DNA of 64,000 bases from Phyllobates terribilis (Eukaryota), in NCBI RefSeq assembly GCF_046119375.1, contig NW_027362768.1, positions 144,646,001-144,710,000 of the forward strand. Direction: 5' to 3'. Position 1 is the first letter of the stretch. Every line of letters begins with the position of its first letter. This document shows, in pieces, positions 11,509 to 61,820 of the stretch. The position numbers and the translations under genes are program-made. A model generated the notes under the pieces. It was not told where the DNA came from and made no database searches. It saw only the letters and a list, made by a program, of their open reading frames with translations.

Positions 11509-13050
11509 ATGGAGGCGGTTGACTCCCTGATCACCAGGCTGAGAGACGCAGCGAGATCCAGGCGTGGAGGGTGGCTTGAATCCCAGCGGTCCGAATTGCT
11601 GGGGAATGCCAGGGTGAAAGAATCGCCGTCGGGGTCAGGTAGAAGCACCAGGAGAACGCGGCCCCCCAAGAGGCTTTCACCGGAGATTGCCGGCACGTGC
11701 AGCAGGCGCAGGCTGCGGAGCCCCTCAGGGGACCCTGCGTCTGGTGAGCATAGCGGCGGAATCCCCCGCCGCCGCGCCCGCCACGGCAGGAATCCGCCCA
11801 GCCGGCCTGCGGGCGCTGCCATCAGCGTGTCGCGGTCAGCGACTGAAGTTACGCCCCCACCGGATGTGCGGCCTGCTCCGGCGGTGCGCCGCAGTAACAG
11901 AGCCTGGGCCGCGCCGGAAGCAAGGCCCGCGCTACAGCAGCGTCATCAGAGTGCAGCCTGCGTCATCGCCGGTGCCGGCGGTACGTGACAGGGCCGCACA
12001 GGAAGTGAGCGGTGGGCACAGATATCTATCTCCCGCAACAAGAGCCAGCAGCGAATCATGGCGCCGGGTTTCAAATAAAAAGGGGGCCAGAGGGACCGGA
12101 GGGACCAGCAGCACGGCAGGCACACCTGGCGATGTACCAGTCGAGGTGCCTGTTAGACAGAGCAGCAGGAGCAGACAGCACAGCGTATACCTGTAGTGTT
12201 GCTGGTGGGGAGTGAATCGGCAAGGTCGGCGGTGGGTGCAGAGGGGGCAACTTCGGGCGTATCGGTGTCTGTGCAGACAGAAAAGGATAAAGCGGATGCC
12301 TTAAGATTGGATTACAGGGCAAAAGGGGAGGTATATGTGCGCTTTGAGGGGCCGTTGGGGGCACACTTGAAGAAAGAGGTTAAAGAAAAAATCTGGCGGG
12401 ATGAATATGTTGAAATTTTTTCCCTTCTTCCGTTGGAAAAGTTTATTCTGGATAAGGGAAAAAAGGACGGCAGTAGAAAAGAGGAGGAAGAGAAGCGTAG
12501 GTGGAAGTTGATTCCTCAGACGTTTGTCAATTGGTTGCAAGCTTTTGCAATAATGGCTAGCGTCATTGGAGAAAAAGCTCCGGATAATTGCTCGGGTTTA
12601 TTTTGCTACCTAGATGCTATTGGGGAGGCTCATCGTACTTATGGGGGTCAGACATGGTTACGATACGATGAGCAATTTCCACAGCGGAAGGCAGTCCGCC
12701 CGGAGATTAGATGGGATCAAAAGGACATAGGGTTGTGGCTGAAGGTTATGGCTCCGGCGAGGTATGGGAAGTCCTTTCACAGGAGCGGCAGTAGTGGGAA
12801 CCAATCAGCAGGACACGGGGGAAGTAGCCAAGGGGCACAAAGCTATAGGAAGGAAACTTGTTGGCAATTTAATGATGGGCAATGTAAGAACGGGAACTCC
12901 TGCAAATTTAAACATGTGTGCTCCCATTGTAACGGAAGTTCACATGGAGCATCTAAATGCTTTAAGAAGGGTAAGGGAAAGCTGCCAGTGTGTACCGGTC
13001 AAGGGGGTGACTCCAGTGAGGCTTCACGAGATGGCCCCCTTTCTAAGTAG
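11509..13050 (+). pseudogene. Ngaro gag-like ORF1 (frameshifted)
   Basis: MEAVDSLITRLRDAA start; 12196-13050 carries WLQAFAIMASVI, WLRYDEQF and the C-terminal Cys/His fingers. Confidence 0.8.
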
Positions 13051-14580
13051 GTTTTCCGGATCAGTTGAAGGCTAAGGTCATTTCAGATGTTTTTTTGGAG
13101 GGTTTTAGAATTCCTCCTCCTGATCACGAGGTCCCCTTTTCTGTTAAGAATTTGATGTCGGCTTCCCTTCATCCGGAGGTGGTTAGTGTGAAGCTGGCAA
13201 AAGAGGTTGAATTGGGTAGGATGGCTGGACCGTTTCAGGAATTACCTAGTAGTAAGGTGATTATTTCGCTGTTGGGGGTTGTGCCCAAGAAAGAGCTGAA
13301 TAAGTTTTGTTTTATTTATTTATTTATTTGTCGTACCCTAAGGGGCTTTCCGTGAATGATAGCATTGCGCAAGAATTGTGTTCGGTTGAATATACATCAT
13401 TCGATGCGGCGGTGCAATGGGTACGGAGATACAGGCCAGGATCGTTGCTAGCTAAGACTGATATTGAGTCGGCTTTTAGGTTGCTGCCAGTTCACCCGGA
13501 TAGTATCCCGTTGTTAGGTTGTTTTTTGAAAGGGAAATATTATGTGGATAGGTGTTTGCCAATGGGTTGCGCAATTTCGTGTTCTTTGTTTGAAACGTTT
13601 AGTACCTTTTTGGAATGGGTGGTGAGGGGCTTGGCATCAGTTCAGTCGGTCATTCATTATTTGGATGACTTTTTGTTTATAGGTCCTCCGCAATCGTTGT
13701 TGTGTAGGAATTTGTTAGGTACTATGGTGTGTGTAGCGGATCATCTTGGCGTACCATTGGCGGAAGAAAAAACAGAAGGACCTTGTACCATTTTAATTTT
13801 TTTGGGCATATTAATAGATTCGGAGAGGATGGAGTGTCGGTTGCCTAACGATAAATTGAGTCTGCTCAAGCTAGAAGTGGATAGAGTCAGGAGGTTGCAT
13901 AAGGTGACGCTGAAGGAGTTACAATCACTGTTAGGTCGTTTGAATTTTGCTTGCAGGATTATTATGCCAATGGGCAGAATATTTTGTCGCAGGTTGTCAG
14001 GGGCAACAGCAGGAGTGCGTGCGCCGCATCATTTCATTCATTTAAATAAGGACCACAAGGAGGATTTGAAGGTTTGGAAGTTGTTTTTGGAAAATTATAA
14101 CGGCAGGTCGTTAATTCAGCAGAGTTTTTGAGCAGTTTTGATTGTGAGATTTTTACAGATGCTGCGGGAGGTGCTGGTTATGGAGCTTACTGGAAGGGGC
14201 GTTGGAGTGTTGGAGTATGACCGAGTCTGTGGCAGGAGAGGGGTCTTACGAGGAACCTGGCGTTTTTGGAATTGTTTCCTATCGTAGTTGCGGTTTCAAT
14301 TTGGGGAGAGTGTTTTGCGAACAGGAGAATACGGTTTCATTGCGATAATATGGGAGTGGTGTCTGTAATTAACAGCTTGTCGGCTTCATCTCAGCCTCTG
14401 ATTGGGCTGCTGAGGGAACTAGTTCTCTGTTGTCTTAATTTGAACACTTGGATTACGGCAGTCCATGTTCCAGGTGTGCAAAATTCCATAGCAGATGCCT
14501 TGTCTCGTTTCCAGTGGGATCGTTTCCGGGCGCTAGCACCAGAGGCGGTGGACGTGGGCAGGAATGCCCTTCGCATCTGT
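13020..14580 (+). pseudogene. Ngaro RT/RNase H (frameshifts, stop)
   Basis: ORFs 13065-13355, 13307-14131 and 14266-14709 with YLDD and RNase H residues. Confidence 0.85.
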
Positions 14581-15105
14581 GGCAGCTGGTTATGGAGGAG
14601 CGGGACGGTTAATTCAGGAATCCATTACAAGGCAGACCTGGGCATCATACGAGGCATCGTGGCGAGTATGGCAAAGTTGGTTACTGCAGTGGGGCTTCGT
14701 GGAGAATGACGGCGATAGAGTGATGGCGGTGTTGTTTCTTGTGGGAAGGGCAACGGAGATTGGGTGGTCTGTTTCAAAAGTGGGCAAATTCGTTGCAGGT
14801 CTAGCGTTTGGTTTTAAATTGCAAGGAAAAAAAAGATGTTACGAAGTCCTTTTTAGTGAAGCAAGCACTTAGGGGCTTTAGGAGAGGGGGCAAGGTTTTA
14901 GATAAAAGAAGACCGGTGTCTTTTAGCATCTTGGAAAGGTTGGGTTTAGTGTTGGATAATATATGTTGTTCAGTTTTTGAAGCTACACTGTTTAGGTTGG
15001 CTTTTTCATTGGCGGTTTGTGGTGCGCTGAGATTAAGCGAGTTGGTGGCACCGAGCAGGAACAGGGTTGGGGTTTTGTTTGCAGAAGATGTTAGCTGTTG
15101 GGCTA
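14564..15105 (+). pseudogene. Ngaro tyrosine recombinase, N-terminal half only
   Basis: TWASYEASW, VKQALRGFRR, RRPVS, ALRLSEL (first catalytic R); similarity ends near 15105. Confidence 0.8.
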
Positions 15106-34508: not shown

Positions 34509-36109
34509 TTTGGACACACCTCATTTAAAGATTTTTCTGTATTTTCATGACTATGAAAATTGTACATTCACACTGAAGGCATCAAAACTATGAATTAACA
34601 CATGTGGAATTATATACTTAACAAAAAAGTGTGAAACAACTGAAAATATGTCTTATATTCTAGGTTCTTCAAAGTAGCCACCTTTTGCTTTGATGACTGC
34701 TTTGCACACTCTTGGCATTCTCTTGATGAGCTTCAAGAGGTAGTCACCGGAAATGGTTTTCACTTCACAGGTGTGCCCGGTCAGGTTTAATAAGTGGGAT
34801 TTCTTGCCTTATAAATGGGGTTGGGACCATCAGTTGTATTGTGCAGAAGTCAGGTGGATACACAGCTGATAGTCCTACTGAATAGACTGTTAGAATTTGT
34901 ATTATGGCAAGAAAAAAGCAGCCAAGTAAAGAAAAACGAGTGGCCATCATTACTTTAAGAAATGAAGGTCAGTCAGTCCGAAAAATTGGGAAAACTTTGA
35001 AAGTGTCCCCAAGTGCAGTTGCAAAAACCATCAAGCGCTACAAAGAAACTGGCTCACATGAGGACCGCCCCAGGAAAGGAAGACCAAGAGTCACCTCTGC
35101 TTCTGAGGATAAGTTTATCCGAGTCACCAGCCTCAGAAATCGCAGGTTAACAGCAGCTCAGATTAGAGACCAGGTCAATGACCCACAGAGTTCTAGCAGC
35201 AGACACAACTCTTCAACAACTGTTAAGAGGAGACTTTGTGTAGCTGGCCTTCATGGTAAAATAGCTGCTAGGAAACCACTGCTAAGGACAGGCAACAAGC
35301 AGAAGAGACTTATTTGGGCTAAAGAACACAAGGAATGGACATTAGACCAGTGGAAATCTGTGCTTTGGTCTGATAAGTCCAAATTTGAGATCTTTGGTTC
35401 CAACCACCGTGTCTTTGTGCGACGCAGAAAAGGTGAACGGATGGACTCTAGATGCCTGGTTCCCACCGTGAAGCATGGAGGAGGAGGTGTGATGGTGCTT
35501 TGCTGGTGACACTGTTGGGGATTTATTCAAAATTGAAGGCATACTGAACCAGCATGGCTACCACAGCATCTTGCAGCGGCATGCTATTCCATCCGGTTTG
35601 CGTTTAGTTGGACCATCATTTATTTTTCAACAGGACAATGACCCCAAACACACCTCCAGGCTGTGTAAGGGCTATTTGACCAAGAAAGAGAATGATGGGG
35701 TGCTACGCCAGATGACCTGGCCTCCACAGTCACCAGACCTGAACCCAATCGAGATGGTTTGGGGTGAGCTGGACTGCAGAGTGAAGGCAAAAGGGCCAAC
35801 AAGTGCTAAGCATCTCTGGGAACTCCTTCAAGATTGTTGGAAGACCATTTCCGGTGACTACCTCTTGAAGCTCATCAAGAGAATGCCAAGAGTGTGCAAA
35901 GCAGTCATCAAAGCAAAAGGTGGCTACTTTGAAGAACCTAGAATATAAGACATATTTTCAGTTGTTTCACACTTTTTTGTTAAATATATAATTCCACATG
36001 TGTTAATTCATAGTTTTGATGCCTTCAGTGTGAATGTACAATTTTCAGCCATGAAAATACAGAAAAATCTTTAAATGAGAAGGTGTGTCCAAACTTTTGG
36101 TCTGTACTG
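34509..36109 (+). mobile_element. DD38E (Intruder-type) Tc1, copy 2, near full length; ORF 34904-35948 frameshifted
   Basis: Paired-like HTH, GRPR, WSDKSK, QDNDPKH-(38 aa)-E; small deletion at VMVWG shifts the frame. Confidence 0.93.
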
Positions 36110-36127
36110 TATATATAGATAGATATA

Positions 36128-37699
36128 CACTGCCCCAAAAAATAAAGGGAACACTCAAATAACACATCCTAGATCTGAATGAATGAAATATTCTCATTGA
36201 ATACTTTGTTCTGTACAAAGTTGAATGTGCTGACAACAAAATCACACAAAAATCATCAATGGAAATCAAATTTATTAACCAATGGAGGCCTGGATTTGGA
36301 GTCACCCCCAAAATTAAAGTGGAAAAACACACTACAGGCTGATCCAACTTTGATGTAATGTCCTTAAAACAAGTCAAAATGAGGCTCAGTATTGTGTGTG
36401 GCCTCCACGTGCCTGTATGACCTCCCTACAATGCCTGGGCATGCTCCTGATGAGGTTGCGGATGGTCTCCTGTGGGATCTCCACCCAGACCTGGACTAAA
36501 GCATCCTCCAACTCCTGGACAGTCTGTGGTGCAACGTTACGTTGGTGGATGGAGCGAGACATGATGTCCCAGATGTGCTCAATCGGATTCAGGTCTGGGG
36601 AACGGACGGGCCAGTCCATAGCTTCAATGCTTTCGTCTTGCAGGAACTGCTGACACACTCCAGCCACATGAGGTCTGGCATTGTCCTGCATTAGGAGGAA
36701 CCCAGAGCCAACCGCACCAGCATATGGTCTCACAAGGGGTCTGAGGATCTCAGCTCGGTACCTAATGGCAGTCAGGCTACCTCTGGCGAGCACATGGAGG
36801 GCTGTGCGGCCCTCCATAGAAATGCCACCCCACACCATTACTGACCCACTGCCAAACCGGTCATGCTGAAGGATGTTGCAGGCAGCAGATCGCTCTCTAC
36901 GGCGTCTCCAGACTCTGTCACGTCTATCACATGTGCTCAGTGTGAACCTGCTTTCATCTGTGAAGAGCACAGGGCGCCAATGGCGACTTCGCCAATCCTG
37001 GTGTTCTTGGCTAATGCCAAGCGTCCTGCACGGTATTGGGCTGTGAGCACAACCCCCATCTCTGGACGTCGGGCCCTCATACCTCCCTCATGAAGTCGGT
37101 TTCTAACCGTTTGTGCAGACGCATGCACATTTGTGGCCTGCTGGAGGTCATTTTGCAGGGCTCTGGCAGTGCTCCTCCTTGCACAAAGGCTGAGGTAGCG
37201 GTCCTGCTGCTGGGTTGTTGCCCTCCTACGGCCCCCTCCACGTCTCCTGGTGTACTGGCCTGTCTCCTGGTAGCGCCTCCAGCCTCTGGACACTACGCTG
37301 ACAGACACAGCAAACCTTCTTGCCACAGGTCGCATTGATGTGCCATCCTGGATGAGCTGCACTACCTGAGCAACTTCTGTGGGTTGTAGAGTCCGTCTCA
37401 TGCTACCACGAGTGTGAAAGCACAACCAACATTCAAAAGTGACCAAAACATCAGCCAGAAAGCATTGGTGCTGAGATGTGATCTGTGGTCCCCACCTGCA
37501 GAACCACTCCCTTATTGAGGGTGTCTTGATAATTGCCAATAATTTCCATCTATTGTCTATTCCATTCGCACAACAGCATGTGAAAATGATTGTCAATCAG
37601 TGTTGCTTCCTAAGTGGACAGTTTGATTTCACAGAAGTTTGATTTACTTGGAGTTATATTCTGTTGTTTAAGTGTTCCCTTTATTTTTTTTGAGCAGTG
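36128..37699 (-). mobile_element. DD34E Tc1 (family B), full length; ORF 37401-36386 frameshifted
   Basis: TIRs CACTGCC/TCAAAAAAATAAAGGGAACAC at both ends; FTDESRF, QDNARPH-(34 aa)-E. Confidence 0.93.
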
Positions 37700-39676
37700 T
37701 GTATATATATATATATATACACACACACATATATATAAATACAGTACAGACCAAAAGTTTGGACACACCTCATTTACAGATTTTTCTGTATTTTCTTGAC
37801 TATGAAAATTGTACATTCACACTGAAGGCATCAAAACTATGAATTAACATATGTGGAATTATATACTTAACAAAAAAGTGTGAAACAACTGAAAATATGT
37901 CTTATATTCTAAGTTCTTCAAAGTAGCCACCTTTTGCTGTGATGACTGCTTTGCGCACTCTTGGCATTCTCTTGATGAGCTTCAAGAGGTAGTCACCGGA
38001 AATGGTCTTCCAACAATCTTGAAGGAGTTCCCAGAGATGCTTAGCACTTGTTGGCCCTTTTGCCTTCACTCTGCGGTCCAGCTCACCCCAAACCATCTCG
38101 ATTGGGTTCAGGTCTGGTGACTGTGAAGGCCAGGTCATCTGGCGTAGCCCCCCATCACTCTCCTTCCTGGTCAAATAGCCCTTACACAGCCTGGAGGTCT
38201 GTTTGGGGTCATTGTCCTGTTGAAAAATAAATGATGGTCCAACTAAACGCAAACCGGATGGAATAGCATGCCGCTGCAAGATGCTGTGGTAGCCATGCTG
38301 GTTCAGTATGCCTTCAATTTTGAATAAATCCCCAGCAGTGTCACCAGCAAAGCACCCCCACACCATCACACCTCCTCCTCCATGCTTCACGGTGGGAACC
38401 AGGCATGTAGAGTCCATTCATTCACCTTTTCTGCATCGCACAAAGACACGGTGGTTGGAACCAAAGATCTCAAATTTGGACTCATCAGACCAAAGCACAG
38501 ACTTCCACTGTTCTAATGTCCATTCCTTGTATTCTTTAGCCCAAACAAGTCTCTTCTGCTTGTTGCCTGTCCTTAGCAGTGGTTTTCTAGCAGCTATTTT
38601 ACCATGAAGGCCTGCTGCAAAAAGTCTCCTCTTAACAGTTGTTGTAGTTGCTGCTAGAACTCTGTGTGGCATTGACCTGGTCTCTAATCTGAGCTGCTGT
38701 TAACCTGCGATTTCTGAGGCTGGTGACTCGGATAAACTTATCCTCAGAAGCAGAGGTGACTCTTGGTCTTTCTTTCCTGGGGTGGTCCTCATGTGAGCCA
38801 GTTTCTTTGTAGCACTTGATGGTTTTTGCAACTGCACTTGGGGACACTTTCAAAGTTTTCCCACTTTTTCGGACTGACTGACCTTCATTTCTTAAAGTAA
38901 TGATGGCCACTCGTTTTTCTTTACTTAGAATTTGTATTATGGCAAGAAAAAAGCAGCTAATAGTCTATTCAGTAGGATTCACAGTCTATTCCAATTGGAG
39001 TAATACATTTAAAAAGTAATGTTTATTCAATATATTTTAAAATTCACACAAAGCACATGACAAACTGTAAAATCTCAATCCTTGTGTTAGGACTATTAAA
39101 TGTCTCCTTTGGTTGTAGTTCAAGATTTCTAATTTAAGTTTTCATATTGGGTCTCTTTTTTTTTTATTTTTGCTAGCTATATATGTGGCCTCGTTTTGTT
39201 TGGGAATATCATGTCCAACATATATTTCTATAAGAGAAAACTCTCCTATTTATTAGGGAATTAATTATCTGTTCAGACTGTATCATAAAAGTCTGAGGTC
39301 TAGTTGTTATGTACACATATAAATTAATGTGTCTGGTTTATCATAGCGCTACCCTCCTTCATAGGTGCAGCGTTAATTGCTATATTTTCATCGTATTCAC
39401 ATTTAATTAAACCATTAAGTACTGCCCTCGTTCACAGGTCCAGTGCCAATAGCATATTCTTAGACCCTTATGTCAAATAGTCTGATAAATCACTATAAAG
39501 ACTCAATTATGACGGTCCTGAACATGGTCTATGCTCATGCTCAGCCTAATTCATTTAGCACTGCCCTTGTGCACAGGTGCAGTGCCAATAGCTATTTTCT
39601 TGGACCCTTGTATTAAATTGCCTGTTAGATCGTTTCTGAATTATAACTGTCCTGAACGCTATCTGTGCTCTTACTT

Positions 39677-39730
39677 AGCCCTACGCGTTTCATCATTTTT
39701 TGGATAGGACTGCTATGATCATCAGGGGCT
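39677..39730 (-). ncRNA. Hammerhead-ribozyme-like motif (type I, Penelope-type), left-arm copy
   Basis: Reverse complement of 41518-41571. Confidence 0.5.
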
Positions 39731-40799
39731 CGCAGTCAATGTTCCTATTGTTTGAGATAATATGATGCTTATATGATAAACCTATCGGCAGGGTTGCCTG
39801 CCGCGTTTGGCGGCCAAACCGGCATGCTTATATACAAGGCTTGTTACCGCCTCTTTTTTCCTTCATCTTACCGCTGTCCAATGTAGTGGCAGGGCGCAGT
39901 GTGGGCGCATCTTATTGTGAGTCATGTGACTGAGCAGAGGCTCGTCTCGTTTATCCTATAAAAACACTTTCTTCATATATGTTATAAGTGGTTTAACTGT
40001 GCTACGTTGCCGCAGTGTTATTTTATTCTTTGAAGTCCAATCTTAATCTGTGGACTAACATAATAGATAAATTCATATGATAAACTCTTGTTATGAATTC
40101 ATTATTATTTTTTGTGATTCTGTTATGATATGACGTTTGTTGGACAGGTCTTCCTGTTTCATGTAATATTTAATCCTCATTAATTCAAAAGAAATTTCAA
40201 TTGTACAATAGCTATTTAGTGATATCGAAATATATTTACATGACAGTATGATCTTTTCCTTATTGTATCGATATCTGAGTTAAAAATTCTCAAAAATTGA
40301 TTCACTAAACTATCATGTATATAATCTCTACATCTAAAAGTCTTTAGTATATACTTTATATTCAGAGGACAGCAGGAATAACTATGGACCTGTCCTAATA
40401 TTATCAGGTTTGTTTTTATACGAGCTAACTTTCTGGTATACATTCTTTAGTTATCTTTTTACTGCAACACCGGTTTGATAGTTATATGAATCAGTATCCA
40501 TTATATGAAGGTCATGGTCCGGTTTCTAATGATAATATGGATTGCACTATGGCTAGGGAGTTATTGAATCGGTAGTAGTATTTTAACTTTATTGAAGAAA
40601 GTCATTTAGTAGTATCAGTGTTATCAAAGTAGGAGAACTACATCAGGGGTAGGAATATGACTACTGGGAGAACTACATAAGGGATATACAGTAGATGTTA
40701 TTCGGTGTCAATGAAACATGTAAATGACAATGTCTCATTGACACCATATGGGTTGTATGATTTGATCCTATGAATCCATTCACTTTCCTTATGAAGGAA

Positions 40800-41270
40800 C
40801 CAATCAGGACAGCGGTGTTTTAAATTTCGCGACCAATCAGCGAACCGTGTTAGTGAGGACCAGGGAGCGGCACTGCCTGTGCGGGTACTTCCGCTGTGAG
40901 TAGCAGGGAGATGACCGGCTAGCGCCGGTCATCTCCCGGCTGCATCGCCGCTGACCTCCATGCGGCTACCGTCGGGAGATCAGCGGCTAGGGCCGCTGAT
41001 CTCCCAACGGCAAGTGTGAAGGGAGGACCGGGGAGCGGCGCCGCCTAGGCCGCTGGTCGGGGTACTTCTGCTGCGAGCAGCCGGGAGATGACAGGCTAGC
41101 GCCGGTCATCTCCCGGCTGCATCGCCGGCTGACCTCCGTGCGGCAGATGAGCCGCTAACGGCCGCCATCTTGTTCTGAAATCCCGCGTCGCTGATTGGGC
41201 CCCGGCCGGACCAATCAGCGACGCAGGATTTCCTGGATGGACAGACAAGATAAGCCGATTATATAGTAGA
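40800..41270 (-). mobile_element. Possible Helitron 5' fragment with GC-rich tandem hairpins
   Basis: Minus strand begins A|TCTACTATATAAT; two copies of GGGAGATGACCGGC-TAGC-GCCGGTCATCTCCC (first perfect); no CTRR 3' end found. Confidence 0.4.
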
Positions 41271-41517
41271 TATGAAGAAAGTGCTTTTATAGGATAAACG
41301 AGACGAGCCTCTGCTCAGTCACATGACTCACAATAAGATGCGCCCACACTGCGCCCTGCCACTACATTGGACAGCGGTAAGATGAAGGAAAAAAGAGGCG
41401 GTAACAAGCCTTGTATATAAGCATGCCGGTTTGGCCGCCAAACGCGGCAGGCAACCCTGCCGATAGGTTTATCATATAAGCATCATATTATCTCAAACAA
41501 TAGGAACATTGACTGCG

Positions 41518-41571
41518 AGCCCCTGATGATCATAGCAGTCCTATCCAAAAAATGATGAAACGCGTAGGGCT
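41518..41571 (+). ncRNA. Hammerhead-ribozyme-like motif (type I, Penelope-type), right-arm copy
   Basis: Stem I AGCCC/GGGCU, core CUGAUGA (41523-41529), stem II UCAU/AUGA plus an extra U, GAAA (41557-41560), palindromic ACGCGU stem III, GUA site. Confidence 0.5.
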
Positions 41572-42714
41572 AAGTAAGAGCACAGATAGCGTTCAGGACA
41601 GTTATAATTCAGAAACGATCTAACAGGCAATTTAATACAAGGGTCCAAGAAAATAGCTATTGGCACTGCACCTGTGCACAAGGGCAGTGCTAAATGAATT
41701 AGGCTGAGCATGAGCATAGACAATATTCAGGACTGTCATAATTGAGTCTTTATAGTGATTTATCAGACTATTTGACATAAGGGTCTAAGAATATAATATT
41801 GGCACTGGACCTGTGAACGAGGGCAGTACTTAATGGTTTAATTAAATGTGAATACGATAAAAATATAGCAATTAACGCTGCACCTATGAAGGAGGGTAGC
41901 GCTATGATAAACCAGACACATTAATTTATATGTGTACATAACAACTAGACCTCAGACTTTTATGATACAGTCTGAACAGATAATTAATTCCCTAATAAAT
42001 AGGAGAGTTTTCTCTTATAGAAATATATGTTGGACATGATATTCCCAAACAAAACGAGGCCACATATATAGCTAGCAAAAATAAAAAAAAAAAGAGACCC
42101 AATATGAAAACTTAAATTAGAAATCTTGAACTACAACCAAAGGAGACATTTAATAGTCCTAACGCAAGGATTGAGATTTTACAGTTTGTCATGTGCTTTG
42201 TGTGAATTTTAAAATATATTGAATAAACATTACTTTTTAAATTTATTACTCCAATTGGAATAGACTGTGAAAACTTTACTATATAATTTGGAGCACATTT
42301 ACAATATATAATACTGTGAAGTCTATTCAGTAGGACTATCAGCTGTGTATCCACCTGACTTCTGCACAACACAACTGATGGTCCCAACCCCATTTATAAG
42401 GCAAGAAATCCCACTTATTAAACCTGACAGGGCACACCTGTGAAGTGAAGACCATTTCCGGTGACTACCTCTTGAAACTCATCAAGACAATGCCAAGAGT
42501 GTGCAAAGCAGTCATCAAAGCAAAAGGTGGCTACTTTGAAGAACCTAGAATATAAGACATATTTTCAGTTGTTTCACACTTTTTTGTTAAGTATATAATT
42601 CCACATGTGTTAATTCATAGCTTTGATGCCTTCAGTGTCAATGTACATAAAAATCTTTAAATGAGAAGGTGTGTCCAAACTTTTGGTCTGTACTGTACAT
42701 ATATACATACACAC

Positions 42715-43229
42715 AAAATTTAATTTGCGTCGCCATTTTCTGAGACCCATAACTTTATTTTTCAATTTTTTCCATTTTATTGGGAAGGCGTGCGACAACC
42801 ATAAAAATGTCAATTCTGGAGTTTCACTTTTTTTTTTTTTCAAGCAATTGTTGCTCGGTTTAAATAATTTTATACTTCAACAGAGCGATATTTTATGGAC
42901 ACAATAATACCAAATATGATTATTCTTTAAAATTTCTTTATTTTTCAACAGGAAAAAGGGGGGCGATTCCTACATCGTTTGATCATTTTAACTATATACT
43001 GCAGTATATGGCGAAAACGACACTGTCCTTCAAAGACCAACCACATACTGCGCTTCACAGGAGGACCTATATGGCAGGAACATGGGACCTTCAGCATGCC
43101 TCTGGCTGCCATGTCAACCCCTTGACCACCAGCGATTACGATTACGTTGCGGGGAGGATGATGGGGATAGATGCAAGGAGCACCGGCAACCAGTTAATGT
43201 AAATGCCGCTGACAGGGGCATCTAAATTG
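42715..43229 (+). mobile_element. piggyBac-type non-autonomous repeat, right part
   Basis: Continues the 33809 family sequence; ends at TTAA 43230-43233 with a degenerate terminus. Confidence 0.4.
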
Positions 43230-44599
43230 TTAAATGGAGTTTGTCAGCTCAGAATGACTGTTCAAACCAAGTACAGGCGCTCGGTGCACCCTTGGTGTGG
43301 CCAAACATTTAAGTGAACCTTTCCTCCTACTTGTTTTCCCTCCATCTCCTCCTTCTTCTTCCTTGACTGACAGCTCTGGCTTTATATAGCCAGAGAAGAG
43401 CAAAGATAGGTGAAAAAAAGTAAGTGGAAAGGTGTATATAAAATGTTTGGTCACGCCAAGGGTGCACGAGTGCCTGTTCTTAGTTTCAACAGTTATTCTG
43501 CGCTGACTACCTTAAACAGCAGCGACCAGAGCAAAGCTCCGCTCGCTGTTGGTGAAGGCAATTTGATGCAAACATAAGGCTCATCCATGGAGCTGTAATA
43601 GGGTCATGTGCACGAGGTACTCTTATTATTTATATTTTTTAGGTCCCTCAATTGCCTGTAGATTGGTGGAGGTCCAAGTCCTGAGACTCCCAACAATCAC
43701 TCAAAAGACCTCTAAGAAGTATGCAGCTTGGGAAGCAGCAGGAGAGCGCACACACAGAACAAATTCCATAGAAACATTATGCTCCCAACTGCACCTTTTT
43801 TGTCTGATTTTTGGTGTTTTTTTTGCCTGTTTTTCACTTCAGCCCTATTTGACTGTGTCTTTTTTAAAGTCTATTTTATATGTGTTCACTTGTTTTATGT
43901 ATACGAGCAAAGTGAAAAAAATACAAGCTGAATACATTATCGAAGAAATCAGACTTGATGGGGCTGGTGTATTTGCGATGAAAATCCACGTCAGAAAGAC
44001 TATATAATCTTTTCTGAAAGTTTCCTTGACTGATTAACCTCTTCCCGCCCTATGATGTACTATTACTGACAGCGGCATTTAAGTGGTATGATATCAGTGG
44101 GGCGTTTCTTCGGGCGCCCTATCCGTGACAGGGTCACAGGGTGTCCATGGGCTGCAATGATAGTCAACAACTAGCAGAAAGCAGTCATAGTCACCATCTT
44201 GGTGCTAGTTACGGGATCATTGTATTATTTGTACCATATATGCAATACCGAAATATCTAAATAAATATTTGATCGCAGATTCAAGTTCCCTAGGGAACTA
44301 AAAACAAAAAAAAGTGAAAATGAAAGTGTCATAAGTTACTTACCGGTAACCGGATTTTTCAGAGACCATGACAGCACCACGAGAGAGGGGATCCGCCCAC
44401 CAAGGACAAGAAACCTACAGGCTTAAAAGGGGCGGCCCTCTCTTCTCGCGTCAGTTTGGATTACAGAGCATTGAGAGGCCCACCAGATTAGTAGACATAG
44501 CAAAACATGATAAACCAACATTTCTATAAATCACCAACTTAAGAGTGAAAATTAAGAAACAAGGAATGCTCCCACCAATGTGAAGGGAGGGAATATAAA

Positions 44600-44683
44600 G
44601 GTGCTGTCATGGTCTCCGAAAAATCCCGTTACCGGTAAGTAACTTTTAACTTTATTGGTCGACCATGACAGCACCACGAGAGA
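44600..44683. repeat. DIRS internal complementary region (ICR)
   Basis: First half pairs with 44333-44378, second half with about 49873-49903. Confidence 0.88.
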
Positions 44684-44702
44684 ATTACAGAGATGAAGAA
44701 GT

Positions 44703-46091
44703 TTAGGGAGGGACTACAGCTTGGAGCACCCTTCTCCCGAAAGTGAGATCAGACGAAACACCCGAATCTAGTCTATAGTGCCTATAGAAGGTAGAAGGAG
44801 AAGAGCAAGTAGCAGCCTCACATATGTCTTCTATCGAGACACCCGTCTTCTCTGCCCAGGAGGTAGTCACTGCCCAGGTGGAGTGAGCCTTCAATTCTTG
44901 TGGTATTTCCTCACCGCTGGATGTATAAGCTAGGGAAATAGTGTCCCTGATCCATCTAGCTATGGTGGACTTTGTGACCTTAGAGTCTTTCCTAACACTT
45001 TGGTAGGATATAAATAACAAACTGTCTTTTCTAAACTCTTTGGTGACAAAGAGATACCCAATTACACATCTCCTTACGTCTAGTGTATGAAACTCTTCTT
45101 CTTTCCGGTTACCCGGATTAGGGCAGAAGGAGGGTGGGACTACTTCTTGGAGTCTGTAAAAACGGGTAGCTACTTTAGGGAGATAGGCGGGATCAGGTTT
45201 AAGAATTATTTTATCATCCAGGATCTGAGTGAAGGGCAAGGCTGAAGACAGGGCATGAATATCACTAACTCTCCTAGCAGATGTTAAAGCTATCAGAAGC
45301 ACTGTTTTAAGGGAGAGGGACTTAAGAGTGGCTAACTTTATTGGCTCAAAGGGTGGACCAGTAAGAACCAAATTTAGATCCCAGGGTACCAATTTGCTTT
45401 TGACAATGGGCCTAGACTTAAAGGCAGCTTTAATGAAACAAGCAATCCAATAATTACTCGCCAGATCACAGCTATATAAGGCGCCTAAGGCGGACACCTG
45501 AACCTTCAGGGTGCTAGTGGCTAGCCCTAACTCAAGACCTTTTTGCAGAAATTCTAGAATTTTACTTATTGGAGCCTGCTCACCCACTCTGGAACCGGAA
45601 AAAGATAAAAACTTCTTCCAGGTTCTCGCATAAAATCTGGTTGTAATAGGCTTACGGCTACGCATTAAGGTTGTCACTAAGCCTTGGGAGAATCCCTTTT
45701 TGCTTAATAGCATCAAGTTCCATACCATCAAGTGGAGGCCAGACACTTGAGGATGGACTATTGGACCCTGGAAGAGGAGATCCGGAACTTTTGGTAGAAC
45801 CCAAGGATCTGACACAGACATGCACCTGAGGCATGAGAACCAGGGCCTCCTGGGCCAAAAGGGTGCGAACATCAGAACTCTCGCCTTGTCATCCCTGATA
45901 ACCATAGGAAGAAGGGTTAATGGGGGAAAGGCATAGGCTAGGCTGAACCCCCAAGGTATCTGGAGAGCGTCTACCGCCAGGGGTTTTTCTTTGGGATCCA
46001 GGGAACAGAAGAGCCGTGTTTTCCGATTTAACTTTGTAGCAAACAAGTCCACTACTGGAGGTCCCCATCTTTGGACAAGTTGGGAGAACAT
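44703..46091 (-). pseudogene. DIRS methyltransferase-like domain in frame with tyrosine recombinase (462 codons)
   Basis: VDLFAT...AYAFPP (MT-like), then ARRVSD, HTLDVRRC, HSTW (HxxR with R to W), RHY. Confidence 0.85.
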
Positions 46092-46163
46092 GTCCTGATT
46101 TAGTTCCCATTCCCTCTGTCTCAGGGTATAGCGGCTTAAGTAGTCTGCCCTTGAATTTTCTTC

Positions 46164-47449
46164 TCACTTTATATGAAGGGCTGTTAGGGAACGAAGACGG
46201 CATTCCGAGACCTGAAAGAGATGATCCGCCACTCTCATCAGAGATCTTGATCGTGTACCCCCTTGGCGGTTCACGTAAGCTACTGGAATTTTATTATCAG
46301 AGAAAACCTTTACGTCATGATTTTGAAGAAAAACTAGAAAATAATTGACTGCCCTGTCTATCGCTAGCAACTCTTTAGCGTTGGAGGAGAGACTCTTTTC
46401 CGAATTAGACCATGACCCCTGGGTTACCATATCTCCCAGATGGGGCCCCCACCCACTGGAACTGGAATCGGTAGTAATTGTTCTTGTTGTTCTAAAAACC
46501 CAGGGGACCCCTCTGGATAAGTTCATTTCATTATCCCACCACTGTAAGGATTCAACTGACCGGGGAGACAAGGAAAACCTTCCCTCCAAGCGCCCCCCCG
46601 TTCAACATAACTTCATTATGCAGTACATCCCATTGTAAAACCCTGGAGTGATATTGAGCCCACAGAACCCCAGGAAGCAAGATGTCAGGGTACCTAACAG
46701 GGACATCGCAGCTCTCAGGGACATGACTGGGTTTGACACTGCCCTTCTTACTTCATCCCTGATCCTTAGTTTTTTGGCTTCAGGGAGGTAACATGTCTGA
46801 TAATCTGAATCCAGAAGAATCTTAAGAATTGCTGAACTTTTGTGGCCGTTAACCTAGATTTATTTAAATTGAGGACCCAGCCCAGATTTTCTAAGATGGA
46901 GATCACTATTTTTAGATGCTTATTACATTGAATGGCCGAGTTACCAACTATCAGGAAATCATCCAGATAAGGGATAATTAATATGTCATGCTCTCTAACA
47001 TGAGCCATTACCCCTGCCACGATTTTGGTAAATACCCGGGGGGCTATGGCTAAACCGAACGGCAGGGCCCTATATTGAAAGTTCTTGATGACCCCATCTA
47101 TAACCACGGCCACTCTAAGATATTTCTGGTAATCTGAATGGATAGGTACAGGGTAATAGGCGTATTTCAAATCCAAAACTACCATGTAACAATCTGCAAA
47201 CAGCAATTTTATTGTTGACCTTATCGATTCCACTTTGAAGGTGGGGATTATCAGAAATTTATTCAGGGCTTTTAAATTTATAATACACCTGAAAGAACCA
47301 TCCGGCTTAGAGACCAGGAAGAGAGGGGAGTAAAATCCCAACCCCCTTTCGGACGCCGGGACCTCCACCAGGACTGCTTTTTGAACAAGGTTCAGTACTT
47401 CTTCCTGAAGAGCGAGTTGTTCTGATCTAGAGGAATGGACCGGGGTCAA
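46164..47449 (-). pseudogene. DIRS RT and RNase H (frameshifted)
   Basis: FYSPLFLVSKPDG, DLKYAY, ALPFG, PYLDD; TTDSS..GWG, NAKEL, SDNK. Confidence 0.9.
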
Positions 47450-47611
47450 GATAAACCTTCCACGAGGAACTGCTTGGAACTGGATTCTCAGACCCGAACC
47501 TATCAGATTAAGGATCCAGTTACTGGCTGAAATCTTTGTCCAGGCAGGTTCGAAGCCCGTCAGCCTCCCCCCTACCTGGGCTACGAGTCATTAACTCGAT
47601 TTCCGGGGCTC

Positions 47612-49131
47612 TCAAGTGGAAGAAGAGGTACAGAACAAAAGACCTCTACCTTTTGGTTTACGGTCTTCCCATTTATCCTGGTCTCTCTGTGGCCTTTTAC
47701 GTACAAATCTTCTCCTGCGAAAAGACCGCTTATAGGCCGGCATGGACAGGCTAGGGAAACCTTTCTTCCAGTCGCTTGCTTTGTCTAGGATTTCATCCAG
47801 GACTGGACCGAAGAGGTGTTCCCCTTCGCAAGGTATAGCAGAGTCTAGTTCTAGCCTGGATGTCACCCAGCCAACACTTGAGCCACAGAGCCCTCCTGTC
47901 TGCATTAGAAATGGCGGCCGATCTAGCAGCTAACTTAACCGAGTCCGCGGAAGCATCCACTAGAAAGGCTGCTGCCCCCTGCATGAGTGACTAGACAAGA
48001 TCTCTTTCCTGGATGTGTAGTTTTCTAAGTGCGATTCCAGCTGATCTAGCCATATTATCAAAGACCTAGCTGTGCAAGTTGCAGCAATTGCCGGTTTTAA
48101 AGCCCCAGCGGTTGTCTCCCAGGTGCCTTTGAGAAACACATCCGCTTTTCTGTCCAGAGGATCTTTAAGGGCCCCCATATCATCAAAGGGGACAGATGAC
48201 TTTTTAGAAGCTTTAGTTATGGCAGCGTCTAGTTTGGGAGCCTTCTCCCAGGAGGAGGAGGCCGAGTCCTCAAAGGGGTACTTTCTTTTAAAGAATGGGG
48301 GGAGAGAACCCTTTCTTTCCGGCTTTTGCCACTCTCTATGGATTAGACCCTGAAGTTTATCATTAAACGGGAAACATTTTCTCTTCCTCTGCCCCAGTCC
48401 TCTGAACATGACGTCTTGGACTGACTTCTCTGGTCTGAGGTCCGTAATGCCCATGGTTGAGCGGACCACTTTAACCAACCCGTCAACTTCATTTAATGGA
48501 AAGCAGTGCTGGCCTGAACCACTATCCGAAGATGAGGAAGATGAAGAAGTTGAATCGTCAGAGTCCACCTCCTCGACTGATGATAGGGAATAATCAGGAG
48601 TTGGGGAGACCTCATGGTTAGCTTCCTTCCTCTTAGACTTTTTAGAGAGGAGTTTGCTCACCTCTGATTTAACTAGGGTTTTTAAGCCTGAGGCGAAACT
48701 AGGGGTCTCATCCGCCAAGGTTTGGTTTATGCAGGACTGGCACAGTCTTTTGGAATATGAGTCCGCCAATAGGGGCTCGCATAACGCACATTGCTTGTGT
48801 TTGGCTTTGGAGGTACACTTCTTCCCCTAAACGGATAAGAAGAAGGGACACCTTATTACCTAAGTGAATTTTCTCGAAGATCACTTACCAAGAGCTCAAA
48901 TAGCCGGTACCGGTTTAGCTGGAGGACCTTTCTCAGCCGGGGGATCGTCCCTAGGGGCTGCAGATTCGTCCGTTTTGTTAGAGTCACGATGGCTGGACCG
49001 GGTTCGTCTACCTGCAGTCTGAGAATTGCTGGTGACTCGAGGGGTCGTGTCTCCTGGGGCTCCCCAGGTGACCACTAAGATGGAGAAAGCGGTGGCCGTT
49101 GGATTTGCTGCTGCTCGTCTTCAGAATCCAT
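47612..49131 (-). pseudogene. DIRS gag-like ORF1, apparently two exons
   Basis: CALC...CQSC Cys cluster and PKLDAAI..LKDPLDRK region; frame opens exactly at the acceptor AG 48828-48827. Confidence 0.75.
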
Positions 49132-61249: not shown

Positions 61250-61700
61250 AGTGTGCAGCTGCGGCTCCTGTCTCCGGCTCTGCTGCTCTCGCACTGACTG
61301 TTGCTCCGGATCCGTCCTCTGACACTCACTACCCATCATCCCTTGCGCGCCAACATGGCGGTCTCCATGCTCGTCTCCTCCGCTCACAGAACCGGTCTCC
61401 GGTGCCTGAGTGTCAGCGCCAGCCGCAGCCGGAAGCAGGTGCAGCGTCCCCGGGAGAGGAAGGAGCCGCTGGAGATCCCGGGCCTGGAGCGGATCACGTA
61501 CGCGGACCGCTGTTACTACGTGCCCTGGCTAGCGCGGCCCAAGTACCAAGAGTTTCGCATGGACTGGAACCCGCAGCATTACCGCTCCCCGCCCGTCCAG
61601 CAGATGGCGCTGTACAAGGAGCAGCCCTCCTATGTGTTCAACCCCAAGTGCCGGCTGCTGGGAGGTATGGAGGGTCCCTGTATGTCAGGCCTCTGTCTGA
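61250..61700. promoter_or_regulatory. CpG-rich bidirectional promoter region CYB5RL/MRPL37 with YY1-type motif CAACATGGCGG (61351-61361)
   Basis: Head-to-head genes, high CpG density; AANATGGCG consensus overlaps the MRPL37 ATG. Confidence 0.65.
61355..61664 (+). CDS. MRPL37: MRPL37 exon 1 (mitochondrial ribosomal protein mL37)
   Basis: ccaacATGG Kozak; EIPGLERITY..VPWLARP..YRSPP..LYKEQ..CRLLG; G|GTATGG donor. Confidence 0.95.
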
Positions 61701-61820
61701 CCCTTCTCCTGCCCCGTACAGTTCTGGAGCTTTGTTTTCTTCCTCCTACAAAACTCTGAATAAATTGCCAGTTGGCAGTGCGTCCTTGCCTGGTCTGGTG
61801 TGTGCCAAACTACATAGTGG

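What the first reader, a model, noticed from the sequence alone, without database searches (positions are those of the whole stretch)
38962..42335. 3.3-kb foldback with 1-kb inverted arms, each carrying a dimer-type hammerhead-like ribozyme, inserted with a 16-bp target duplication
Seen: near-identical arms, no recognised ORF, a 48-bp one-sided tail, AGTCTATTCAGTAGGA duplicated, and arm ends sharing AGTCTATT with the target. Each arm has stem I (5 bp), CUGAUGA, GAAA, palindromic ACGCGU and a GUA site, with both motifs pointing outward. Knowledge: Penelope-like elements carry minimal hammerheads with palindromic stem III that cleave as dimers and often insert with inverted pLTRs; long variable TSDs fit target-primed retrotransposition better than cut-and-paste. 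Inference: a young non-autonomous, retrozyme-like PLE derivative; transcription from either side would give one ribozyme plus 1 kb of dsRNA. Caveat: stem II has an extra U, so activity is unproven.
Basis: partly seen in the sequence, partly recalled or inferred. Interest (0 to 1): 0.72.

Follow-up and report, generated by a model that had tools for sequence, protein, structure and literature searches.

The report
Penelope insertion records ribozyme cuts
This 3.3-kb mirror-image insert is a cut-short copy of a known Penelope-type jumping gene in its usual head-to-head layout, so it is ordinary in kind, but it and its relatives break unusually often at the exact base where the built-in ribozyme is predicted to cut, which likely records that this odd ribozyme cleaves in the living germ line.

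Summary
The foldback is real: arms 997/1009 identical, one tail, a 13-16-bp duplication in a Tc1 copy, one hammerhead-like motif per arm. It is not a separate ORF-less retrozyme family. The spacer holds the last 33 codons of a Penelope-like (Neptune-type) RT/GIY-YIG ORF plus a truncated Helitron-like repeat; a decayed full-length relative lies elsewhere in the genome; no other copy exceeds 86% identity among the candidates scored. Inverted arm, one-sided tail and variable TSD are the published layout, and this scan found such insertions before in other genomes. The end/target match is a one-off (1 of 59 ends). One result goes further. The extra-U core is conserved across the family, and 9 of 44 independent 5' breakpoints within 100 nt of the motif fall at the predicted cut (p about 1e-6; 5 of 44, p 0.005, without hand reassignment). 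The 134-bp duplication inside each arm is one of them. A second cluster lies about 30 nt after a TATA box. Most likely reverse transcriptase runs off RNA 5' ends made by transcription start and by ribozyme cleavage. That is indirect evidence of in vivo cleavage, which the papers read had not shown; no cleavage assay was done.

The parts
38962..38977 (+). Left target-site duplication (13-16 bp; first 3 nt ambiguous)
   Evidence: single in three other Tc1 copies of the window; for the ambiguity
38978..39977 (-). Left arm: 3' pLTR of the main (longer) copy, ending at the tail-less end motif
39677..39730 (-). Type I hammerhead-like motif, predicted cut between 39682 and 39681
39828..39834 (-). TATA box of the left pLTR (promoter inferred)
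39978..40697 (-). Non-coding body between ORF stop and arm; 68-76% identical to relatives
40698..40799 (-). Last 33 codons and stop of the PLE RT/GIY-YIG ORF
   Evidence: 27/33 identical, E 2e-17
40799..41270 (-). Truncated non-autonomous Helitron-like repeat: 5'-TC end intact at an A|T site of the right arm, hairpin-CTAG end missing
   Evidence: 4411 candidates, best 95%; the Helitron label rests on recalled end features
41271..42271 (+). Right arm: inverted 5'-truncated copy
41414..41420 (+). TATA box, 153 nt upstream of the predicted cut; start site inferred near 41446
41518..41571 (+). Type I hammerhead-like motif: 5-bp stem I, CUGAUGA, 4-bp stem II plus unpaired U, GAAA, palindromic ACGCGU; predicted cut 41566|41567
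41567..41835 (+). 134-bp tandem duplication (units 74% alike); second unit starts at 41701 with the first base after the predicted cut; mirrored at 39681-39413
42272..42319 (+). One-sided tail (48-51 bp), the sequence that precedes the ORF start in a full-length tandem relative
42320..42335 (+). Right target-site duplication
37769..42713 (.). Host Tc1/mariner copy interrupted by the insertion (approximate limits)

Best explanation
This is a 5'-truncated insertion of a Neptune-type Penelope-like retrotransposon made of two head-to-head copies of the element's 3' end, likely written by reverse transcription from both strands of a staggered cut, and its hammerhead likely cleaves the family's RNA in vivo. 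Shown: the layout, the ORF end, the tail, the TSD, the relatives and the breakpoint clusters. Inferred: the element's protein nicked the Tc1 target 13-16 nt apart; one strand primed at the tail-less site and copied about 1.8 kb into the ORF, the other primed about 50 nt further along the RNA (tail) and copied at least 1 kb; the two cDNAs were joined. A Helitron then landed in the right arm and the centre was deleted (order inferred). In the family, transcripts would start about 30 nt after the pLTR TATA box and some would be cut by the hammerhead about 120 nt later; RT running off either RNA end gives the two breakpoint clusters, and a jump from the cut end to another RNA gives duplications such as the 134-bp one fixed in both arms here. 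This copy cannot encode a protein and is predicted to be dead as a source. Confidence is for the PLE insertion; for in vivo cleavage I put about 0.7.
For: ORF end matches relatives. A 5.3-kb decayed tandem relative has pLTR, tail, ORF with RT motifs, CxxCxxC linker and GIY-YIG; RVT_1 hit E 5.7e-7 on another relative. Of 24 both-ended pairs, 22 scored exactly one tail, 2 none, 0 two; TSDs found in 17 of 24, plus two of 15 bp. Breakpoints: 9 of 44 events between -100 and +100 at the cut, p 1.2e-6, any-window p 2e-4; 20 of 54 raw segment starts between -189 and -10 fall at -127..-103, p 2e-5, with TATA most often at -152. Stem II covaries (UCAU/AUGA against UCAA/UUGA) while its loop drifts. Layout is published (PMC8557442, PMC3846280, passages); two RT start sites and both-strand extension shown in vitro for a related PLE (PMC11167929).
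Against: No cleavage assay and no RNA reads. Four of the 9 cut-site events were moved to the cut by reading the junction; with only the 5 placed there by the aligner p is 0.005, and 5 in some 5-nt window arises by chance in 40% of simulations, so the result leans on the site being fixed beforehand. Events were collapsed by hand and loci were not a random sample. The core lacks the G10.1-C11.1 pair and is one base short on the 5' side of stem II; the hammerhead is not the MFE fold. For the anole PLE, HHR mutants did not affect insertion and no RNA-seq reads ended at the site (PMC11167929). No intact or close source element was found. The Helitron looks older (12/442 from the majority of 27 siblings) than the arms are from each other (9/995), p 0.035 at non-CpG sites. 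Neptune was assigned by motif, not by a tree.
Confidence: 0.9

Rival explanations
1. Same PLE insertion, but the hammerhead is inert and the breakpoint cluster comes from RT stalling or template switching at the stem I hairpin, or from a splice acceptor in the motif.
For: Non-canonical core; hammerhead fold not favoured; low in vitro activity of PLE minimal hammerheads (PMC4209133); an AG follows the cut site; one junction is a palindrome built from stem I bases.
Against: 9 of the 11 junctions inspected keep no hammerhead base upstream of the cut as aligned while keeping the whole 3' strand of stem I (the other two are within 1-2 nt); upstream sequences differ between events and there is no pyrimidine tract, unlike splicing; base -1 is T in 7 of 10 events (p 0.01), as a non-templated A at run-off would give (recalled RT property).
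Confidence: 0.27
2. A self-standing non-autonomous foldback or retrozyme family that moves as a 3.3-kb unit.
For: Arms 99% alike, clean TSD, Helitron older-looking than the arms, as expected if it was carried in a source. PLEs can move unrelated sequence between pLTRs (PMC3846280, passages).
Against: No second copy of the unit or of its junctions among the scored candidates; every relative has its own arm lengths and junction; hammerheads are on opposite strands, not tandem.
Confidence: 0.04
3. A foldback or MITE-type DNA transposon with long terminal inverted repeats.
For: 1-kb inverted arms inside a DNA transposon.
Against: Variable 12-17-bp TSD cores, asymmetric tail, tandem copies, RT/GIY-YIG ORF in relatives.
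Confidence: 0.01
4. The second arm is an assembly artefact.
For: No contig of the four runs laid spans the whole element.
Against: Arms differ at 10 places; alleles of both arms occur in contigs from 3 samples of 2 studies; arm contigs are about twice as deep as spacer contigs in X6 and X8 (weak, contig depth); one contig runs from the right arm through the tail into the TSD; perfect TSD; same layout at 24 loci.
Confidence: 0.02
5. RNA-guided targeting: the element end base-paired with the target through the 9-nt match.
For: 9-nt identity next to the nick, 11 nt with the usual Tc1 allele.
Against: 1 of 59 tail-less ends has a match of 7 nt or more, against 4 of 59 in distal control flanks.
Confidence: 0.03

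Closest known systems
EN+ Penelope-like elements, Neptune clade (PMC8557442, passages; PMC3846280, passages)
   Same: 5' truncation, partial tandems, inverted 5'-truncated copy, tail at one end, short variable TSD, HHR in the pLTR, CX2-5CxxC linker before GIY-YIG.
   Different: Tail about 50 bp instead of 30-40; arms about 1 kb instead of about 200 bp; 1.7 kb of non-coding sequence after the ORF; a Helitron fragment at the junction.
Minimal PLE hammerheads (PMC4209133, parts 1-2 of 4; PMC6765202, passages)
   Same: Type I, short stem I, palindromic stem III needing a dimer; opposite-strand pairs already noted.
   Different: Published consensus has an extra base between 9 and 10.1 and a G10.1-C11.1 pair; here the 5' side is one base short and a U is unpaired before GAAA. 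Lunse et al. 2017 on PLE variants could not be read and may already list this core.
Anole Poseidon element PAc in vitro (PMC11167929, parts 1-2 of 4)
   Same: Both strands cut and extended; two RT start sites whose spacing is the tail; no need for target homology.
   Different: That study saw no start-site difference between strands and no RNA ends at the HHR site; here no pair has two tails and breakpoints cluster at the HHR site.
R2 elements with HDV-like ribozyme (PMC3774820, abstract)
   Same: Ribozyme cleavage position is reflected in genomic 5' junctions: a working analogy.
   Different: Different retroelement class and ribozyme; in R2 the cut defines the normal 5' end, here it marks a minority of truncations and duplications.
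Non-LTR retrozymes (10.64898/2026.07.22.740005, part 1 and passages)
   Same: PLE-derived type I HHR, no protein.
   Different: Defined as tandem repeats with an HHR in each unit; this is a single inverted insertion with an ORF remnant.

Membership tests
EN+ Penelope-like element | Single ORF with RT and C-terminal GIY-YIG endonuclease | tested here: met
   ORF end in the window; RT motifs and GIY-YIG in relatives; RVT_1 E 5.7e-7; Pfam GIY-YIG only E 0.017, below cut-off
EN+ Penelope-like element | pLTRs from partial tandems, direct or inverted | tested here: met
EN+ Penelope-like element | Short tail at one end | tested here: met
   22 of 24 pairs one tail, 0 two
EN+ Penelope-like element | Variable TSD | tested here: met
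EN+ Penelope-like element | HHR motif in the pLTR | tested here: met
   468 exact pattern matches, 0 for the control
Neptune clade | CX2-5CxxC linker between RT and EN | tested here: met
   CGGCKAC in relatives; shared with Nematis per PMC8557442
Neptune clade | RT phylogeny groups with Neptune | not tested
   No reference sequences at hand; only Neptune and Poseidon reported in vertebrates (bioRxiv 2026.07.22.740005, passage)
Type I hammerhead ribozyme | CUGANGA / GAAA / NUH core closed by stem I | tested here: met
Type I hammerhead ribozyme | Stem II abutting GAAA, usually G10.1-C11.1 | tested here: not met
   U-A closing pair plus unpaired U; short form in 26 of 39 distinct cores by a strict rule
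Type I hammerhead ribozyme | Self-cleavage at the NUH site | not testable with these tools
   Indirect only: breakpoint cluster
Non-LTR retrozyme | Tandem units, each with a same-strand HHR | tested here: not met
   One HHR per strand; the internal duplication lacks the core
Non-LTR retrozyme | No coding remnant; own multi-copy family | tested here: not met
Non-autonomous Helitron (spacer repeat) | 5'-TC, 3' hairpin plus CTRR, A|T target, no TSD (recalled) | tested here: met
   Two full siblings of 553 and 576 bp show these ends; the window copy keeps only the TC end at A|T

The most novel reading that the evidence does not exclude
The family's genomic copies are a fossil record of hammerhead cleavage during Penelope retrotransposition: a core variant one base short of the consensus cuts germ-line transcripts about 120 nt after the pLTR start site, RT runs off or jumps at that end, and each inverted insertion is primed in a coordinated way from exactly one tailed and one tail-less site. 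Breakpoint mapping would then be a sequence-only assay of which PLE ribozymes work in vivo.
Probability: 0.55. Interest if true: 0.62.

Novelty: new member of a known kind. Interest (0 to 1): 0.4.

Why it matters
The insertion itself is a textbook PLE product. What matters is the by-product: whether PLE hammerheads cleave in vivo is open in the papers read (PMC4209133 says in vivo evidence is absent; PMC11167929 found no RNA ends at the site). Breakpoints at the predicted cut in several independent lineages suggest they do, even with a non-consensus core, and give a cheap test that can be run on any genome with PLEs. The strict absence of two-tailed pairs constrains models of two-strand priming.

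Tried and rejected
Rfam: no hammerhead family hit in 36000-45000. The 28-bp micro-inversion in the host Tc1 beside the TSD is not caused by the insertion: 4913 exact matches genome-wide. End/target homology rejected as a rule. Clustering of arm differences (4 of 8 within 74 nt, p 0.07) and their one-sidedness (6 against 1, p 0.125) are not significant. An automated breakpoint census was unusable (short or contaminated references) and was replaced. No RNA holder listed. Joints that skip the element come from other Tc1 copies, so an empty allele could not be judged. Idea that the amplified copies on unplaced contigs sit in rDNA: no rRNA hit in the two 10-kb stretches scanned. Lunse et al. 2017 is not held; its variants, and the supplements of PMC4209133 and PMC11167929, which I did not open, may already show this core. 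Searches for a prior report of PLE breakpoints at the hammerhead site (scan notes) listed none that I saw saying so; most listed papers were seen as listings only. Junction-bridging contigs at the Helitron/right-arm joint remain unchecked.
Full report
Observation. The window comes from a 10.6-Gb genome; the repeat types suggest an amphibian (inference). A local alignment gives inverted arms at 38978-39986 and 41262-42271 with 997 identical bases, 12 mismatches and one indel. Three mismatches belong to the end of another repeat, so the arms proper are 38978-39977 and 41271-42271 with 9 substitutions and 1 indel. The 16-mer at 38962 and 42320 is single in three other Tc1 copies of the window, so it is a target duplication. 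Its first three bases could also be element-derived, because the tail goes on AAGTG in relatives. Each arm holds the hammerhead-like motif; a looser descriptor turns up in 3 of 3000 simulated arms. Contigs of four runs (3 samples, 2 studies; one may be the assembly's own source) carry the spacer and alleles of both arms, and arm contigs are about twice as deep as spacer contigs in two runs; none spans the whole element.

What the spacer is. 40698-40799 (-) encodes 33 residues, 27 identical to the C-terminus of a relative's ORF. 39978-40697 is the family's non-coding body. 40799-41270 is a repeat with over 4400 candidates, best 95% identical. Full siblings run from TC to a hairpin and CTAG in an A|T site, the recalled marks of a non-autonomous Helitron. 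The window copy keeps the TC end, in register at an A|T of the right arm, and has lost the other end.

The family. Searches with the whole element, the arm and the body found no other PLE copy above 86% identity among the 40 best candidates each (of 5193, 672 and 291). At G000:C1:721.88 Mb a decayed 5.3-kb tandem copy shows pLTR, tail, then an ORF with RT motifs, a CxxCxxC linker and GIY-YIG; another relative hits RVT_1 at E 5.7e-7, while Pfam GIY-YIG stays below cut-off. The linker marks Neptune or Nematis (PMC8557442, passages), and only Neptune and Poseidon are reported in vertebrates (bioRxiv 2026.07.22.740005, passage); no tree was built. Exact patterns give 468 hammerheads and 240 ends, controls 0. 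Of 24 both-ended pairs within single loci, this one included, 22 scored exactly one tail, 2 none (each shows a tail-like stretch on one side by eye) and none two; two of the 24 use an internal tandem junction. The script found TSDs in 17 of 24 (9-23 nt allowing up to 2 mismatches, cores about 12-17). Inverted copy, one-sided tail and variable TSD are the published layout (PMC8557442, PMC3846280, passages), and earlier notes of this scan reached the same reading in other genomes.

End/target match. Only this locus, 1 of 59 tail-less ends, has a match of 7 nt or more; distal control flanks have 4 of 59. It is treated as chance.

The hammerhead. Among 39 distinct cores, 38 have U before GAAA; 26 are the short form seen here, 8 a form one base longer, 5 other. 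The pattern fixed stem I, the core and stem III, so only stem II and its loop were free to vary. Stem II covaries (UCAU/AUGA against UCAA/UUGA) while the loop drifts. The core lacks the G10.1-C11.1 pair of the published PLE consensus (PMC4209133), although weak or mismatched stem II bases occur in active hammerheads (PMC3088659, passages). The hammerhead is not the MFE fold. In a read-through transcript it would be locked in the arm duplex; outward transcripts from the pLTR TATA boxes (41414 +, 39834 -) would leave it free (inference).

Breakpoints. Each arm has a 134-bp duplication whose second unit starts at the first base after the predicted cut. Aligning all loci to 41 clean references spanning -200..+130 around the cut gave 157 segments, 55 running through the upstream edge and 102 listed. 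Between -100 and +100 I collapsed these by hand to 44 independent events: 9 at the cut and 35 elsewhere (7 of the 35 are probably alignment fade-outs, kept). The 9 are the duplication shared by this element and five relatives, three other duplications (L243/L060, L345, L155), four truncations (L239, L285, L194, L279) and a palindrome centred on the cut (L326). Binomial p is 1.2e-6 for a 5-nt window fixed in advance and 2e-4 for any window; with only the 5 events that the aligner itself placed at 0..+2, p is 0.005, and 0.40 for any window. A 10-nt deletion ending at the cut (L075) was not counted. Base -1 is T in 7 of 10 (p 0.01). A second cluster, 20 of 54 raw starts between -189 and -10, lies at -127..-103 (p 2e-5, not collapsed by event), about 30 nt after a TATA box found most often at -152 in 50 of 84 references. 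The loci were gathered by several anchored searches and are not a random sample; hammerhead-anchored searches bias against the cluster, and one search used a query starting at the cut.

Mechanism. Shown: anatomy, relatives, tail rule, clusters. Inferred: staggered nicks 13-16 nt apart; each strand primes RT at one of two sites about 50 nt apart, as the two start sites and both-strand extension of the anole element suggest (PMC11167929); head-to-head joining; later Helitron insertion with loss of the centre. Both arms here extend upstream of the inferred start site, so they were copied from read-through, uncut RNA. In the family, RT run-off at capped starts and at ribozyme-cut ends would give the two clusters, and jumps from the cut end would give the duplications. 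R2 offers the analogy that cleavage position shows in 5' junctions (PMC3774820, abstract). Against: the anole HHR was dispensable in vitro and no RNA ends were seen (PMC11167929); RT stalling at stem I remains a rival. Unexplained: the Helitron is 12/442 from the majority of its 27 nearest siblings, the arms only 9/995 apart (non-CpG p 0.035, CpG p 0.06-0.14); the host Tc1 is 14/639 from the majority of 10 siblings.

Papers. PMC11167929 and PMC4209133: parts 1-2 of 4 read. bioRxiv 2026.07.22.740005: part 1 of 5 and passages. PMC3846280, PMC8557442, PMC6765202, PMC3088659: passages. PMC3774820: abstract and outline. Lunse et al. 2017: not held, seen only as cited in PMC6765202. No supplements opened. 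Searches listed no paper that I saw reporting PLE breakpoints at the hammerhead site; this is a limited library.

Verdict. A new member of a known kind, confidence 0.9. Interest 0.4 comes almost wholly from the breakpoint footprint, which gives indirect support (about 0.7) for in vivo cleavage by a non-consensus PLE hammerhead and makes that question testable from sequence.

Noticed in passing
window 38929-38956: 28-bp micro-inversion in the host Tc1 relative to three other copies in the window; a common Tc1 variant (4913 exact matches).
   Followed up: yes
G000 C10:28.5-28.7 Mb and unplaced contigs C74, C84, C94, C123, C134: Many near-identical PLE copies, often about 50 kb apart, make up about half of the first 100 listed of 468 hammerhead matches: probably one insertion amplified in a macro-repeat. 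No rRNA in the two stretches scanned.
   Followed up: partly
L077 2473-2995; L291 95-966: Tandem array of about 65-bp units that include the pLTR hairpin at +79..+130 after the cut, without the hammerhead core.
   Followed up: no
L326 around 3070: Perfect inverted junction centred on the predicted cut base; both arms start there.
   Followed up: partly
L075 around 2569: 10-nt deletion of the hammerhead's GAAA-to-cut segment ending exactly at the cut; not counted among the 9 events.
   Followed up: partly
window 41660-41695, 41800-41830, 41875-41905 (approximate): A recurring GC-rich hairpin motif downstream of the hammerhead, kept in 1-3 copies in relatives; possible protein-binding element.
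   Followed up: no
L319 6552-6623: A tRNA gene lies within about 20 nt of a PLE end.
   Followed up: no
window 61298-61759 (+): Open frame that looks like the first exon of a mitochondrial ribosomal protein gene (recalled resemblance; no Pfam hit), 19 kb from the element.
   Followed up: partly
window 44703-48826 (-): Decayed element with RT (RVT_1) and a recombinase-like frame, DIRS-like by recall; a second one near 12157-14709.
   Followed up: no
window 40799-41270: Helitron-like fragment looks older than the arm pair that flanks it: arm gene conversion or carriage from a source copy; unexplained.
   Followed up: partly
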